The notes under the pieces are model-generated. The model saw nothing but the letters and a program-made list of their open reading frames with translations, made no database searches and had not been told where the DNA came from. The position numbers were made by a program, and so were the translations under genes. A DNA stretch of 64,000 nt. Origin: Escherichia coli (lineage in GTDB: Bacteria; Pseudomonadota; Gammaproteobacteria; Enterobacterales; Enterobacteriaceae). Of the stretch, positions 17,669 through 37,638 are shown one piece after another; the stretch's first letter is position 1, and every line of letters starts with the position of its first letter. The stretch lies in assembly GCF_024223415.1 (NCBI RefSeq), contig NZ_CP100500.1; one strand, 5' to 3'.

Positions 17669-18604
17669 ATGATGCGTCGTGTAAATATTTTTTGCTCATT
17701 TGCTCTGCTTTTTGCCAGCCAAAATAGCCTGGCGGTAACTTATCCATTACCTCCAGAGGGTAGCCGTTTAGTGGGGCAGTCGCTTACTGTAACTGTTCCT
17801 GATCACAATACTCAGCCGCTGGAGACTTTTGCCGCACAATACGGGCAAGGGTTAAGTAATATGCTGGAAGCGAATCCGGGCGCTGATGTTTTTTTGCCGA
17901 AGCCTGGCTCACAACTCACCATTCCGCAGCAACTGATTTTGCCCGCCACTGTTCGTAAAGGGATTGTGGTTAACGTCGCTGAAATGCGTCTTTATTACTA
18001 TCCGCCAGACAGTAATACAGTGGAAGTCTTTCCTATTGGTATCGGCCAGGCTGGGCGAGAAACCCCGCGTAACTGGGTGACTACCGTTGAACGTAAACAA
18101 GAAGCACCAACCTGGACGCCAACGCCGAACACCCGGCGCGAATATGCGAAACGAGGGGAGAGTTTGCCCGCATTTGTTCCTGCGGGGCCCGATAACCCCA
18201 TGGGGCTGTACGCGATTTATATTGGCAGGTTGTATGCCATCCACGGTACCAATGCCAATTTTGGTATTGGGCTCCGTGTAAGTCAGGGCTGTATTCGTCT
18301 GCGTAATGACGATATCAAATATCTGTTTGATAATGTTCCTGTAGGCACTCGTGTACAAATTATTGATCAGCCAGTGAAATACACAACGGAACCGGATGGT
18401 TCAAAGTGGCTGGAAGTTCATGAGCCGCTGTCGCGCAATCGTGCAGAATATGAGTCTGACCGAAAAGTGCCATTGCCGGTAACCCCATCTTTGCGGGCGT
18501 TTATCAACGGGCAAGAAGTTGATGTAAATCGCGCAAATGCTGCGTTGCAACGTCGATCGGGAATGCCTGTGCAAATTAGTTCTGGTTCAAGACAGATGTT
18601 CTAA
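17669..18604 (+). CDS. ldtA: L,D-transpeptidase (ErfK/LdtA)
   Basis: About 310 aa, signal peptide, YkuD-type catalytic region with conserved ...SQGCIRL. Confidence 0.9.
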
Positions 18605-18625: not shown

Positions 18626-18655
18626 AAAAAGCCTGCTCGAAAGCAGGCTTTTTTG
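18626..18655. terminator. bidirectional Rho-independent terminator hairpin between ldtA and asnV
   Basis: aaaaagcctgctcgaaagcaggctttttt. Confidence 0.7.
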
Positions 18656-18659
18656 AATT

Positions 18660-18735
18660 TGGCTCCTCTGACTGGACTCGAACCAGTGACATACGGATTA
18701 ACAGTCCGCCGTTCTACCGACTGAACTACAGAGGA
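18660..18735 (-). tRNA. asnV: tRNA-Asn (GUU)
   Basis: Reverse complement matches the E. coli tRNA-Asn sequence including CCA. Confidence 0.95.
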
Positions 18736-18990
18736 ATCGTGTGAACGGGGCGCATATTAATGGCAGTGCATGGTGATGTCAAAGGGTGAAATGCATTTTT
18801 TTGTTTGTTTGCTGCCAATTTCAACAAAGTGGTGAGCTTTCAATCTTATTGGGTAATGAACCATCGTGGTGCATACCCTCCTTTTATAGGGCAGGTGAAT
18901 GCGACTGCAGATAAAAAGAGCCAATGACGAATCTATCATAATCTCTTATTTGACAGTTGGTTAGCTTGCGCATCAACGCCAAAATAGAAC

Positions 18991-19006
18991 TGGCAAGCAT
19001 CTTGCA
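18991..19006 (+). promoter_or_regulatory. sigma-54 promoter (-24/-12 element) for nac
   Basis: TGGCAAGCATCTTGCA fits TGGCAC-N5-TTGCA with correct GG-N10-GC spacing, about 55 bp upstream of the nac ATG. Confidence 0.7.
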
Positions 19007-19061
19007 TTCTGGTTGTAAGTAATGGCGGCACTTGGGCCGACTCTTAAAAACCGGAGGCAAC

Positions 19062-19979
19062 ATGAACTTCAGACGCCTGAAATACTTCGTAAAAATTGTA
19101 GATATTGGTAGCCTGACCCAGGCTGCTGAAGTATTGCATATCGCACAACCAGCGCTCAGCCAGCAGGTTGCCACACTGGAAGGTGAGTTTAATCAACAAC
19201 TTTTGATTCGCACAAAACGGGGCGTTACGCCAACTGACGCCGGAAAAATTCTCTATACCCATGCGCGGGCCATTTTACGTCAGTGTGAGCAGGCCCAACT
19301 GGCGGTGCATAACGTTGGTCAGGCATTATCGGGGCAAGTCTCGATTGGCTTTGCGCCAGGAACCGCTGCGTCATCCATCACCATGCCCTTATTACAGGCG
19401 GTTCGCGCTGAATTCCCGGAGGTCGTTATCTATCTTCATGAAAATAGCGGTGCAGTGCTTAACGAAAAACTGATAAATCACCAACTCGATATGGCGGTGA
19501 TTTATGAGCATTCCCCTGTGGCTGGTGTATCCAGTCAGGCTTTACTGAAAGAAGATCTTTTCCTGGTAGGGACTCAAGATTGTCCGGGGCAAAGCGTTGA
19601 TGTTAATGCTATTGCGCAAATGAACCTCTTTCTTCCCAGTGATTACAGTGCTGTTAGACTTCGTGTTGATGAGGCTTTTTCCCTACGGCGACTCACGGCA
19701 AAAGTCATTGGTGAAATTGAGTCTATTGCCACGCTTACCGCAGCGATTGCCAGCGGCATGGGCGTTGCAGTATTACCCGAATCGGCCGCGCGTTCGTTAT
19801 GTGGCGCAGTAAACGGGTGGATGTCACGCATTACCACACCTTCCATGAGTCTCTCTTTGTCATTAAATTTACCCGCCAGAGCGAACTTATCACCACAGGC
19901 ACAGGCAGTGAAAGAGTTGTTAATGTCAGTGATGAGTTCTCCAGTGATGGAAAAAAGGCAGTGGCAATTGGTGAGCTAA
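19062..19979 (+). CDS. nac: nitrogen assimilation control protein, LysR-family regulator
   Basis: 305 aa, MNFRRLKYFVKIVDIGSLTQAAEVLHIAQPALSQQV. Confidence 0.95.
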   Translation: MNFRRLKYFVKIVDIGSLTQAAEVLHIAQPALSQQVATLEGEFNQQLLIRTKRGVTPTDAGKILYTHARAILRQCEQAQLAVHNVGQALSGQVSIGFAPGTAASSITMPLLQAVRAEFPEVVIYLHENSGAVLNEKLINHQLDMAVIYEHSPVAGVSSQALLKEDLFLVGTQDCPGQSVDVNAIAQMNLFLPSDYSAVRLRVDEAFSLRRLTAKVIGEIESIATLTAAIASGMGVAVLPESAARSLCGAVNGWMSRITTPSMSLSLSLNLPARANLSPQAQAVKELLMSVMSSPVMEKRQWQLVS

Positions 19980-20080: not shown

Positions 20081-21031
20081 GTGAATTTCCAACAACTAAA
20101 GATAATCCGCGAGGCTGCACGTCAGGATTACAACCTGACAGAGGTTGCGAATATGCTTTTTACCTCACAGTCCGGCGTCAGCCGTCATATTCGGGAACTG
20201 GAGGATGAACTTGGCATCGAAATATTTGTTCGACGAGGTAAGCGACTGCTGGGCATGACTGAACCGGGCAAAGCATTACTGGTCATTGCTGAACGTATTC
20301 TGAATGAAGCCAGTAATGTTCGTCGGCTTGCAGACCTGTTTACCAACGATACGTCTGGCGTTCTCACTATTGCAACGACGCATACTCAGGCACGTTATAG
20401 TTTGCCAGAGGTCATTAAATCTTTTCGCGAACTTTTCCCGGAGGTTCGGCTCGAGCTAATCCAGGGGACGCCACAGGAAATTGCGACGTTGTTGCATAAT
20501 GGTGAAGCTGATATTGGTATCGCCAGCGAGCGTTTGAGTAATGACCCGCAGCTCGTCGCCTTCCCGTGGTTTCGTTGGCACCATAGTTTGCTTGTTCCAC
20601 TCGATCATCCCTTGACGCAAATTACACCATTGACGCTGGAATCAATAGCGAAGTGGCCGTTAATCACTTACCGACAGGGGATTACGGGGCGCTCACGTAT
20701 TGATGACGCATTTGCCCGCAAAGGTTTGCTGGCAGATATTGTATTAAGTGCGCAGGATTCTGATGTCATTAAAACCTATGTTGCTCTTGGGCTTGGGATC
20801 GGAATAGTTGCCGAACAATCCAGCGGTGAACAAGAGGAAAAGAATTTAATCCGCCTGGATACGCGGCATCTTTTTGATGCTAATACTGTCTGGTTGGGAC
20901 TGAAGCGAGGACAACTTCAGCGTAACTATGTCTGGCGCTTTCTGGAACTTTGTAATGCAGGGCTTTCAGTTGAGGATATCAAGCGGCAGGTGATGGAAAA
21001 CAGTGAAGAGGAAATTGATTATCAGATATAG
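20081..21031 (+). CDS. cbl: CysB-like LysR-family regulator
   Basis: 316 aa, MNFQQLKIIREAARQDYNLTEVANMLFTSQSGVSRHI. Confidence 0.95.
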   Translation: MNFQQLKIIREAARQDYNLTEVANMLFTSQSGVSRHIRELEDELGIEIFVRRGKRLLGMTEPGKALLVIAERILNEASNVRRLADLFTNDTSGVLTIATTHTQARYSLPEVIKSFRELFPEVRLELIQGTPQEIATLLHNGEADIGIASERLSNDPQLVAFPWFRWHHSLLVPLDHPLTQITPLTLESIAKWPLITYRQGITGRSRIDDAFARKGLLADIVLSAQDSDVIKTYVALGLGIGIVAEQSSGEQEEKNLIRLDTRHLFDANTVWLGLKRGQLQRNYVWRFLELCNAGLSVEDIKRQVMENSEEEIDYQI

Positions 21032-21068: not shown

Positions 21069-21144
21069 TGGCTCCTCTGACTGGACTCGAACCAGTGACA
21101 TACGGATTAACAGTCCGCCGTTCTACCGACTGAACTACAGAGGA
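21069..21144 (-). tRNA. asnU: tRNA-Asn (GUU)
   Basis: Identical sequence to asnV. Confidence 0.95.
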
Positions 21145-22892: not shown

Positions 22893-22968
22893 TCCTCTGT
22901 AGTTCAGTCGGTAGAACGGCGGACTGTTAATCCGTATGTCACTGGTTCGAGTCCAGTCAGAGGAGCCA
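22893..22968 (+). tRNA. asnW: tRNA-Asn (GUU)
   Basis: TCCTCTGTAGTTCAGTCGGTAGAACGGCGGACTGTTAATCCGTATGTCACTGGTTCGAGTCCAGTCAGAGGAGCCA. Confidence 0.95.

Positions 22969-28971: not shown

Positions 28972-37638
<8,667 letters not shown>

What the first reader, a model, noticed from the sequence alone, without database searches (positions are those of the whole stretch)
18991..19006. Textbook sigma-54 promoter in front of nac
TGGCAAGCATCTTGCA matches the -24/-12 consensus with exact spacing, consistent with NtrC-dependent nac expression. It is a useful anchor for the nitrogen regulon but is known biology.
Basis: partly seen in the sequence, partly recalled or inferred. Interest (0 to 1): 0.15.

Follow-up and report, generated by a model that had tools for sequence, protein, structure and literature searches.

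The report
Known sigma-54 promoter of nac

Summary
The 16-mer TGGCAAGCATCTTGCA is at window 18991-19006 (+), with the GG-N10-GC spacing of a sigma-54 -24/-12 promoter. It lies 56 nt upstream of the ATG of nac, in the E. coli ldtA-asnV-nac-cbl locus. The same 17-mer (CTGGCAAGCATCTTGCA) is a published sigma-54 ChIP-seq site upstream of nac in K-12, flagged as experimentally confirmed in EcoCyc. NtrC ChIP-seq, gSELEX and ChIP-exo studies place NtrC in the same spacer. Motif score alone is not beyond chance in 64 kb (about 0.32 equal-or-better hits expected). The case rests on position (0.0008 expected in the spacer), an NtrC palindrome at -152 (1 found, 0.02 expected), and conservation. I found the exact 16-mer about 70 nt upstream of nac in 23 species genomes from at least 10 genera. 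In these the NtrC palindrome, an adjacent conserved block and a Nac-like box also survive in a spacer that is otherwise about 56% identical. Enhancer-promoter distance is fixed, or shortened by about one or two helical turns. Verdict: observation confirmed, interpretation supported, already known, low interest.

The parts
18990..19006 (+). Sigma-54 (RpoN) promoter core of nac, CTGGCAAGCATCTTGCA. The -24 GG is at 18992-18993 and the -12 GC at 19004-19005.
   Evidence: Sequence. PSSM 15.57 bits, rank 2 in the window. Identical to the K-12 sigma-54 ChIP-seq motif OS19 upstream of nac. Invariant in 7 Escherichia alleles (six E. coli plus Escherichia sp. E1V33). Found about 70 nt upstream of nac in 23 species genomes. 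Published PSSM conservation in 12 other genera.
19017..19017 (+). Predicted transcription start, 12 nt after the C of the -12 GC and 19 bp after the motif centre.
   Evidence: Inferred from sigma-54 geometry. It equals the prediction rule of PMC4591121, whose tabulated distance of 45 bp to the nac start matches 19062-19017. Not mapped here.
19017..19061 (+). Predicted 45-nt 5' leader of nac, with the Shine-Dalgarno GGAGG at 19053-19057.
   Evidence: Sequence. SD and ATG are conserved in all 21 aligned sequences, and leader length is 36-49 nt across genera.
18857..18873 (.). High-affinity-type NtrC (NRI) binding palindrome TGAACCATCGTGGTGCA, centred at -152. This is the enhancer.
   Evidence: One mismatch to TGCACCANNNTGGTGCA; 1 hit in the window against 0.02 expected. 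G18858, C18861, G18871 and C18872 are invariant across 21 sequences from at least 10 genera. The centre is at -150 to -152 in 18 of 21. NtrC binding in this spacer is published.
18875..18894 (.). Second conserved block ACCCTCCTTTTATAGGGCAG (ACCCC-TTAT-GGGGCAG in other genera), about 20 bp (two turns) promoter-side of the strong site. Probably the low-affinity NtrC site of the enhancer.
   Evidence: C18881, G18889, G18891, C18892 and A18893 are invariant across genera, and the 18886-18893 block has mean identity 0.95. The right half TGGGGCA (E. coli TAGGGCA) resembles the NtrC half-site TGGTGCA, but the left half is poor. Assignment to NtrC is an inference, supported by my recollection of Feng et al. 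1995, which is not held in the library.
18935..18949 (.). Nac-like (LysR-type) box ATCATAATCTCTTAT, centred at -75 between enhancer and promoter. Probable site of Nac autorepression.
   Evidence: Fits ATn-N9-TAT and the outer positions of the ChIP-exo Nac motif ATAagnaaaanttAT. Conserved as ATnAGAATCTCTTAT in most genera and invariant in E. coli alleles. A repressor bound between activator and core promoter is described for the K. aerogenes nac promoter. Binding was not tested here.
19062..19979 (+). nac coding sequence (305 aa, LysR family). The real start is the ATG at 19062, not the TTG at 19032 of the longest ORF.
   Evidence: ORF list. NCBIfam NF008410 equivalog, residues 1-305 of 305. 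RefSeq annotation. ATG and SD conserved.
20081..21031 (+). cbl, the gene downstream of nac, reported as part of the NtrC-activated nac-cbl unit.
   Evidence: NCBIfam NF009324 equivalog. 'nac-cbl' is listed as an NtrC ChIP-seq target, and cbl is among the NtrC-upregulated genes. Co-transcription was not tested here.

Best explanation
This is nacp, the sigma-54-dependent promoter of the E. coli nitrogen assimilation control gene nac. RNA polymerase carrying sigma-54 binds the -24 GG and -12 GC elements at 18990-19006 and forms a stable closed complex that cannot open on its own. Under nitrogen limitation, phosphorylated NtrC assembles on the upstream enhancer. The enhancer has a strong palindrome at -152 and probably a weak adjacent site at about -132. 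NtrC contacts the polymerase by DNA looping and uses ATP hydrolysis to open the promoter. Transcription then starts near 19017 and yields nac (and cbl) mRNA with a 45-nt leader. Nac in turn activates or represses sigma-70 promoters, which extends the Ntr response. Nac probably also binds the box at -75, between enhancer and promoter, and damps its own synthesis. Shown here: the sequence, its position, its statistical context and its conservation. Shown in the literature for the identical K-12 sequence: sigma-54 occupancy, NtrC binding in the spacer, and NtrC-dependent induction. Inferred: the exact start site, the assignment of the second block to NtrC, and Nac binding at -75.
For: The sequence and spacing are correct. 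The gene downstream is nac. The identical 17-mer is a high-occupancy sigma-54 ChIP-seq site in K-12 flagged as experimentally confirmed, and nac RNA rises under nitrogen limitation. It is listed among known sigma-54 promoters. There is an NtrC ChIP-seq peak assigned to nac-cbl. gSELEX peaks for RpoN holoenzyme alone, NtrC alone and the two together fall in the nac/asnV spacer. ChIP-exo and RNA-seq show that NtrC up-regulates nac and cbl. The NtrC palindrome with one mismatch occurs once against 0.02 expected. No sigma-70-like promoter was found on the + strand between asnV and nac. In the phylogenetic footprint, the 16-mer, its AAAAC flank, the NtrC palindrome, the adjacent block and the Nac-like box are conserved across at least 10 genera in a spacer with 56% mean column identity. 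The enhancer centre is fixed at -150 to -152 in 18 of 21 sequences, and the three exceptions are about 22 bp or about 12 bp closer, roughly two and one helical turns. Within E. coli all the elements are invariant, while the adjacent consensus-N position 19007 is T, A or G. [quoted passage not shown] Salmonella is said to lack nac.
Against: No experiment was done on this strain; all binding and expression data come from K-12. The start site is predicted, not mapped, and the primary mapping papers (Muse and Bender 1998; Feng et al. 1995) are not in the library. Motif score alone is not significant in a 64-kb window, and an equally good 17-mer sits inside an adhesin gene at 30378. My cross-genus loci were selected by exact match to the 16-mer, so conservation of the 16-mer in that set holds by construction; this is offset by the unbiased table. 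The second enhancer block matches the NtrC consensus poorly in E. coli. The published NtrC ChIP-seq interval (K-12 2059941-2060021) lies over the core promoter and the start of nac, about 130-200 bp from the predicted palindrome. That is within ChIP resolution or looping cross-links, but it is not a precise confirmation of the site.
Confidence: 0.96

Rival explanations
1. The match is a chance occurrence of the sigma-54 consensus with no promoter function, like many motif hits in a genome.
For: The PSSM score of 15.57 bits is expected about 0.32 times per 64-kb window. Random sequences reach the window's top score in 41% of trials, and an equal or better hit lies antisense inside a coding region at 30378.
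Against: Only 0.0008 such hits are expected on the correct strand of the 326-bp spacer. The site co-occurs with an NtrC palindrome for which 0.02 are expected per window. The exact 16-mer is kept upstream of nac in at least 10 genera whose spacers are otherwise about 56% identical. Sigma-54 ChIP-seq occupancy is published for the identical sequence.
Confidence: 0.01
2. The element acts as a palindromic hairpin (GCAAG-CAT-CTTGC), either as an intrinsic terminator or RNA structure, or as the binding site of a different dimeric protein, rather than as a promoter.
For: The terminator scan flags a 5-bp stem with a 3-nt loop at 18993-19005 on both strands. The segment folds at -6.9 kcal/mol.
Against: The stem is short, the energy is weak and no proper T-tract follows. 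No gene reads into it: ldtA ends at 18604 with its own strong bidirectional terminator at 18626-18653, and asnV is transcribed away from it. The partial dyad follows automatically from the TGGCA...TTGCA consensus. Sigma-54 binding is published.
Confidence: 0.01
3. Sigma-54 holoenzyme binds here, but nac is mainly expressed from a separate sigma-70 promoter, so the sigma-54 site is a poised or minor contributor.
For: Many sigma-54 ChIP sites are transcriptionally silent under the conditions tested. ChIP-exo reports some complex promoters with both RpoN and RpoD binding.
Against: No sigma-70-like -35/-10 pair was found on the + strand of the spacer. nac RNA is induced under nitrogen limitation and depends on NtrC. 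The enhancer architecture and its helical phasing are conserved.
Confidence: 0.02

Closest known systems
E. coli K-12 nac promoter (nacp; sigma-54 ChIP-seq site OS19 of PMC4591121; Muse and Bender 1998)
   Same: The 17-mer CTGGCAAGCATCTTGCA, the distance to the nac ATG (16-mer start at -71, predicted leader 45 nt), the NtrC palindrome and the Nac-like box are all identical.
   Different: Only flanking polymorphisms differ. This allele has G instead of A at 18987 (-30) and T instead of A at 19007 (-10). The 326-bp spacer is about 95.7% identical to the K-12-derived J53 allele.
Klebsiella aerogenes / K. pneumoniae nac promoter (Feng, Goss, Bender and Ninfa 1995)
   Same: It is the orthologous sigma-54 promoter; the published PSSM score for Klebsiella is 11.62 against 11.67 for E. 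coli. A repressor (Nac) binds between enhancer and core promoter. From my own recollection of the 1995 papers, which are not held: the enhancer has one high-affinity and one adjacent low-affinity NtrC site and needs more NtrC-P than glnAp2. This matches the strong-palindrome-plus-weak-block layout seen here.
   Different: I could not retrieve the Klebsiella sequence or the footprint coordinates, so the site-by-site correspondence is inferred and not shown.
glnAp2 and glnK promoters of E. coli (other NtrC/sigma-54 promoters)
   Same: They share the mechanism: a -24/-12 core with upstream NtrC sites, activated by NtrC-P under nitrogen limitation.
   Different: glnAp2 responds at lower NtrC levels, while nac and glnK fire only above a higher NtrC threshold as ammonium runs out. 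The nac core has a consensus -12 (TTGCA) with a one-base deviation at -24. glnAp2 has a consensus -24 and a deviant -12 (TCGCT).

Membership tests
Sigma-54 (RpoN) -24/-12 promoter | GG and GC dinucleotides exactly 10 bp apart within TGGCAC-N5-TTGCW | tested here: met
   TGGCAAGCATCTTGCA, GG-N10-GC, one mismatch (A for C after TGGCA). PSSM 15.57 bits against a training-set median of 14.0.
Sigma-54 (RpoN) -24/-12 promoter | Located upstream of a gene, in its orientation, at leader distance | tested here: met
   The 16-mer ends 56 nt before the nac ATG on the same strand and is intergenic. 0.0008 hits are expected by chance in this spacer.
Sigma-54 (RpoN) -24/-12 promoter | Occupied by sigma-54 holoenzyme | not testable with these tools
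   Published for the identical 17-mer in K-12: ChIP-seq fold above threshold 24 and a gSELEX peak with RpoN holoenzyme.
Sigma-54 (RpoN) -24/-12 promoter | Binding site for a bacterial enhancer-binding protein about 100-200 bp upstream | tested here: met
   NtrC palindrome at 18857-18873, centre -152; 1 found against 0.02 expected; conserved across genera.
Sigma-54 (RpoN) -24/-12 promoter | Transcription starts about 12 nt downstream of the -12 GC and depends on rpoN and the activator | not testable with these tools
   The predicted start is 19017. EcoCyc flags the promoter as experimentally confirmed, and NtrC-dependent induction is published. The primary mapping paper is not held.
Sigma-54 (RpoN) -24/-12 promoter | No overlapping sigma-70 -35/-10 promoter is needed to explain expression | tested here: met
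   The consensus scan finds no + strand sigma-70-like site between 18736 and 19061.
Sigma-54 (RpoN) -24/-12 promoter | Conserved at the orthologous position in related species | tested here: met
   The exact 16-mer lies about 70 nt upstream of nac in 23 species genomes from at least 10 genera. An unbiased published PSSM table shows conservation in 12 other genera.
NtrC (NRI) enhancer | Dyad TGCACC-N5-GGTGCA | tested here: met
   TGAACCATCGTGGTGCA, one mismatch. It also fits the ChIP-exo motif GCaCcaaaAtgGtGC.
NtrC (NRI) enhancer | Two adjacent sites on the same helical face, allowing oligomerisation | tested here: inconclusive
   A second, strongly conserved block lies 20 bp away (18875-18894) with a good right half-site only. 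In E. coli it has 8 of 14 mismatches to the full consensus (my reading).
NtrC (NRI) enhancer | Phase-dependent position relative to the promoter | tested here: met
   The centre is at -150 to -152 in 18 of 21 sequences. The exceptions are at -129/-130 and -140, shifts of about 22 and about 12 bp. These are only two independent events, so the support is modest.
Nac (LysR-type) operator | ATA-N9-TAT core (ChIP-exo motif ATAagnaaaanttAT) | tested here: inconclusive
   ATCATAATCTCTTAT at 18935-18949 is ATC-N9-TAT. The pattern is too degenerate for a statistical test. Support comes from conservation in most genera, though not in Kluyvera or some Citrobacter, and from the position between enhancer and promoter.

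The most novel reading that the evidence does not exclude
In many other enterobacterial genera (Pseudescherichia, Kluyvera, Siccibacter, Silvania and an uncultured Enterobacteriaceae genome) the bases between the -12 element and the predicted start read CTCCTCC or a similar CT-rich string. Folding predicts that this string pairs with the nac Shine-Dalgarno sequence only in transcripts that read through the promoter, not in sigma-54-initiated mRNA. If so, the nac promoter would double as a translational insulator of the kind proposed for some sigma-54 promoters. E. coli, including this window, has lost that feature (TTCTGGTTGT). For the window itself, the only open novelty is that its allele carries non-consensus bases at two flanking positions that are otherwise at least 90% conserved (-30 G and -10 T), which might tune promoter strength.
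Probability: 0.15. Interest if true: 0.25.

Novelty: already known. Interest (0 to 1): 0.07.

Why it matters
The promoter is the switch that links the sigma-54/NtrC nitrogen-starvation response to the much larger set of sigma-70 promoters controlled by Nac. It is a reliable landmark for annotating the nitrogen regulon and for orienting this window on the E. coli chromosome. Nothing here changes current understanding. The analysis does give a practical caution: a consensus-quality sigma-54 match carries too little information to be trusted on score alone in tens of kilobases. Position, an activator site and conservation are what separate this real promoter from the equally good match inside the adhesin gene.

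Tried and rejected
(1) I tried to read the primary papers: Muse and Bender 1998 (PMC107004), Bender 2010 (PMC2944532), Reitzer and Schneider 2001 (PMC99035), Atkinson et al. 2002 (PMC135341) and both Feng et al. 1995 papers (PMC177360, PMC177361). None is held. Mapped start sites and footprint coordinates could therefore not be quoted, and what I say about them is marked as recollection.
(2) The ChIP-exo supplement of PMC9853098, which might list Nac binding at its own promoter, is not held. PMC5217608 says nothing on nac autoregulation.
(3) Motif score as a stand-alone test fails at window scale.
(4) The second simple-pattern hit, at 34551-34566, lies antisense inside the 2888-aa adhesin gene. 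It scores 6.55 bits (rank 138) and is absent from the ChIP tables, so I rejected it as chance.
(5) The hairpin/terminator reading of the 16-mer was rejected.
(6) I looked by eye for an IHF consensus between enhancer and promoter and saw no convincing match. I did not pursue this.
The count of 23 nac-linked species is therefore a lower bound, and Klebsiella did not appear in the sample.

Full report
OBSERVATION. Window 18991-19006 (+) reads TGGCAAGCATCTTGCA. GG is at 18992-18993 and GC at 19004-19005, so the spacing is GG-N10-GC as in sigma-54 promoters. The core departs from TGGCAC-N5-TTGCA at one base (TGGCAA).

LOCUS. The window is E. coli chromosome. A 601-bp query around the site is 100% identical to several RefSeq E. 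coli genomes and is present in 5424 of 5426 complete genomes. The annotated order is cobU-cobS-cobT-ldtA(erfK)-tRNA-Asn(asnV, minus strand)-nac-cbl-tRNA-Asn-yeeO. ARAGORN places the tRNA-Asn at 18660-18735 (-). The ORF starting at ATG 19062 is a full-length match to the NAC equivalog model (NF008410, E=1.7e-180), and the next ORF is Cbl. The site therefore lies in the 326-bp asnV-nac spacer, on the nac strand, and ends 56 nt before the nac ATG.

IS IT MORE THAN CHANCE? The loose pattern TGGCA-N6-TTGCW occurs twice in the window against 0.52 expected. For a stricter test I built a PSSM from the 85 intragenic sigma-54 ChIP-seq motifs of PMC4591121 Table 2, a training set that does not include nac. 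The 17-mer 18990-19006 scores 15.57 bits, above the training median of 14.0, and ranks 2nd of about 128,000 positions. This is not significant at window scale. Random 64-kb sequences reach the window's top score in 41% of trials, and about 0.32 hits of at least 15.57 bits are expected per window. The top hit (30378-30394, 15.90 bits) lies antisense inside a 2888-aa adhesin gene. What sets the nac site apart is context. Only 0.0008 such hits are expected on the + strand of this spacer. An NtrC-type palindrome, TGAACCATCGTGGTGCA, sits at 18857-18873 with one mismatch to TGCACCANNNTGGTGCA; that is 1 hit in the window against 0.02 expected. No sigma-70-like promoter is found on the + strand of the spacer. 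The one good sigma-70 promoter (TTGACA-17-TAATAT, 18782-18754) is on the minus strand and belongs to asnV.

PUBLISHED EVIDENCE FOR THE IDENTICAL SEQUENCE.
- In K-12, sigma-54 ChIP-seq site OS19 has the motif CTGGCAAGCATCTTGCA, upstream of nac (b1988). Its fold-above-threshold is 24, the predicted start is 45 bp from the gene start, and the EcoCyc flag is 'experimentally confirmed'. The same paper uses nac as its positive control for induction under nitrogen limitation. The 45 bp equals 19062 minus 19017 in window coordinates, where 19017 is 19 bp downstream of the motif centre.
- PMC2831329 lists aaacTGGCAAGCATCTTGCAATctgg at -71 to -54 among known sigma-54 promoters, and 19062-18991 = 71.
- NtrC ChIP-seq reports a strong peak assigned to nac-cbl.
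- gSELEX finds RpoN holoenzyme, NtrC, and both together in the nac/asnV spacer.
- ChIP-exo with RNA-seq finds that NtrC up-regulates nac and cbl, and gives the motifs for NtrC (GCaCcaaaAtgGtGC), Nac (ATAagnaaaanttAT) and RpoN (tGGcacgattttTGCa).
- The nac and glnK promoters are described as firing only above a higher NtrC threshold than glnAp2.
- The K. aerogenes nac promoter is cited as a case of a repressor bound between activator and core promoter.
The primary mapping and footprinting papers are not in the library.

CONSERVATION.
- Within Escherichia: seven alleles of the spacer (six E. coli plus Escherichia sp. E1V33), including the K-12-derived J53, O157:H7 and ATCC 25922, keep the 16-mer, the NtrC palindrome core and the Nac-like box unchanged. 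The base just 3' of the 16-mer (19007, -10, an N in the consensus) is T, A or G in different strains.
In 23 of them a Nac N-terminus (39-40 of 40 residues identical) begins about 70 nt downstream. The remaining 97 score 2-9 of 40 and are the chance background expected for a 16-mer in 298 Gb. The 23 come from Escherichia, Citrobacter, Kluyvera, Pseudescherichia, Pseudocitrobacter, Siccibacter, Silvania, Atlantibacter, Buttiauxella, an Enterobacter sp. and an uncultured Enterobacteriaceae genome.
- An alignment of 21 upstream regions has a mean column identity of 56% but shows discrete conserved blocks: the NtrC palindrome (G18858, C18861, G18871, C18872 invariant); an adjacent block ACCCC-TTAT-GGGGCAG (window 18875-18894; five invariant positions); a box ATnAGAATCTCTTAT (window 18935-18949); the AAAAC flank 5' of the 16-mer; and the SD with the ATG. 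None of these was used to select the loci.
- The palindrome centre is at -150 to -152 in 18 of 21 sequences. In the two Kluyvera genomes it is at -129/-130 and in Pseudocitrobacter at -140, shifts of about 22 and about 12 bp, close to two and one helical turns. That is what a face-of-helix-dependent enhancer predicts, although these are only two independent events.
- My loci were chosen by the 16-mer, so its own conservation in that set is circular. The published S5 table of PMC4591121 removes this bias. [quoted passage not shown] Salmonella is said to lack nac.

MECHANISM. The best-supported reading is the established one. Sigma-54 holoenzyme sits on 18990-19006 in a closed complex. NtrC-P is made when glutamine is low. 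It binds the strong site at -152 and, cooperatively, the weak neighbour at about -132, then oligomerises, loops to the polymerase and drives open-complex formation by ATP hydrolysis. Transcription starts near 19017. Nac then acts on sigma-70 promoters and, from the box at -75 between enhancer and promoter, probably limits its own synthesis. Shown here are the sequence features, their statistics and their conservation. Sigma-54 and NtrC occupancy and NtrC-dependent induction are shown in the literature for K-12. The exact start site, the assignment of the second block to NtrC and Nac binding at -75 are inferred. I recall that Feng et al. 1995 described the Klebsiella nac enhancer as one high-affinity plus one adjacent low-affinity NtrC site, with a promoter that binds polymerase less well than glnAp2. 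That fits the anatomy seen here, but I could not check it against the paper.

RIVALS. A functionless chance match is excluded by position, the activator site, conservation and ChIP data. A hairpin or terminator reading is excluded: the scan flags a 5-bp stem, the fold is only -6.9 kcal/mol, there is no T-tract and no gene reads into it. A dominant separate sigma-70 promoter is unlikely, since none is found on the + strand and induction depends on NtrC.

VERDICT. The feature is the known nac promoter, so it is already known and of low interest. Several minor points noticed along the way are listed separately.

Noticed in passing
window 18754-18782 (-), with the A/T-rich stretch 18790-18806: A strong sigma-70 promoter for the divergent tRNA-Asn gene asnV (TTGACA-17-TAATAT, 10 of 12) is followed by a GC-rich discriminator (GCGCCCC). 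It shares the spacer with the nac enhancer and is conserved in all aligned genera that keep the tRNA.
   Followed up: partly
window 18807-18827; A1 alignment columns 100-150: A conserved palindrome TTTGCTGA-CAATT-TCAGCAAA (degenerate in E. coli: TTTGCTGCCAATTTCAACAAA) lies about 60-70 bp upstream of the asnV start, with G18807, T18809 and G18811 invariant. It is weak or absent in the three loci that lack the tRNA. A GCAAAC motif (CAGCAAAC at two of the three, CGGCAAAC at the third) recurs upstream of all three tRNA-Asn genes in the window. It may be a FIS-type activator site for the tRNA promoter rather than part of nac control.
   Followed up: partly
L006 (E. coli strain 2017.02.04CC, NZ_AP027754.1), junction equivalent to window ~18868/18869: An IS3-family element is inserted inside the strong NtrC palindrome. 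Only GTGCA and the downstream spacer stay attached to nac. This is a natural enhancer disruption that should blunt nac induction in that strain.
   Followed up: partly
window 18354-18370 (-), inside ldtA: The weak K-12 intragenic sigma-54 ChIP site IA16 (CTGGTCGATAATTTGCA, fold above threshold 1, in erfK) has decayed in this allele to CTGATCAATAATTTGTA. Both GG and GC are lost and the PSSM score drops from 11.3 to -3.75, in contrast to the invariant nac promoter 640 bp away.
   Followed up: yes
window 30378-30394 (+), antisense inside the adhesin gene 28972-37638 (-): This is the best sigma-54 PSSM hit in the whole window (CTGGCGTGCCATTTGCA, 15.90 bits). The K-12-derived J53 genome has CTGGAGTGCCATTTGCA at the equivalent place in yeeJ. 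No ChIP peak for yeeJ appears in the main tables or the held supplements of PMC4591121. It is most likely a chance match, but binding in this strain is untested.
   Followed up: partly
window 34551-34566 (+): This is the second match to the simple pattern TGGCA-N6-TTGCW (TGGCAATCCCGTTGCT). It is also antisense inside the adhesin gene and scores only 6.55 bits (rank 138), so it is a chance match.
   Followed up: yes
window 18736-19061 compared with 5,416 E. coli genomes: The asnV-nac spacer is rather polymorphic within E. coli. Only 495 records are at least 99% identical to this allele, and most are 95-99%, with the K-12-derived J53 at 95.7%. This allele has G at 18987 (-30) and T at 19007 (-10), where at least 90% of the cross-genus alignment has A.
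   Followed up: partly
L014, L022, L087, L025, L103, L066, L082 (other genera), bases -9 to -3 of their nac promoters: A CT-rich string (CTCCTCC or similar) lies between the -12 element and the predicted start. Partition-function folding predicts that the nac SD is almost fully paired in read-through transcripts (probability unpaired about 0.00) but partly open (0.23-0.89) in sigma-54-initiated mRNA. This resembles the insulator idea of bioRxiv 10.1101/086108. The E. coli window lacks the string and shows no difference (0.09 against 0.06).
   Followed up: partly
L022, L087 (Kluyvera), L023 (Pseudocitrobacter): Deletions between the Nac-like box and the promoter bring the NtrC palindrome about 22 bp and about 12 bp closer, roughly two and one helical turns. 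In Kluyvera the deletion removes much of the Nac-like box, so autorepression may be lost there.
   Followed up: partly
window 28972-37638 (-): The yeeJ-type inverse-autotransporter adhesin ORF is 2888 aa here, against 7077 nt (about 2358 aa) annotated in the K-12-derived J53 genome. The Ig-like repeats differ in copy number.
   Followed up: no
window 19032 vs 19062: The mechanical ORF list starts nac at TTG 19032 (315 aa). The annotated start, conserved across genera and preceded by an SD, is ATG 19062 (305 aa).
   Followed up: yes
window 18626-18653: A 12-bp-stem hairpin flanked by A-runs and T-runs lies between the ldtA stop (18604) and the 3' end of asnV (18660). It looks like a shared bidirectional terminator.
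   Followed up: no
window 18660-18735 (-), 21069-21144 (-), 22893-22968 (+): Three tRNA-Asn(GTT) genes lie within 4.3 kb around nac-cbl-yeeO, and the K-12 map shows a fourth next to yeeJ. Each of the three has its own TTGACA/TAAnAT promoter.
   Followed up: partly
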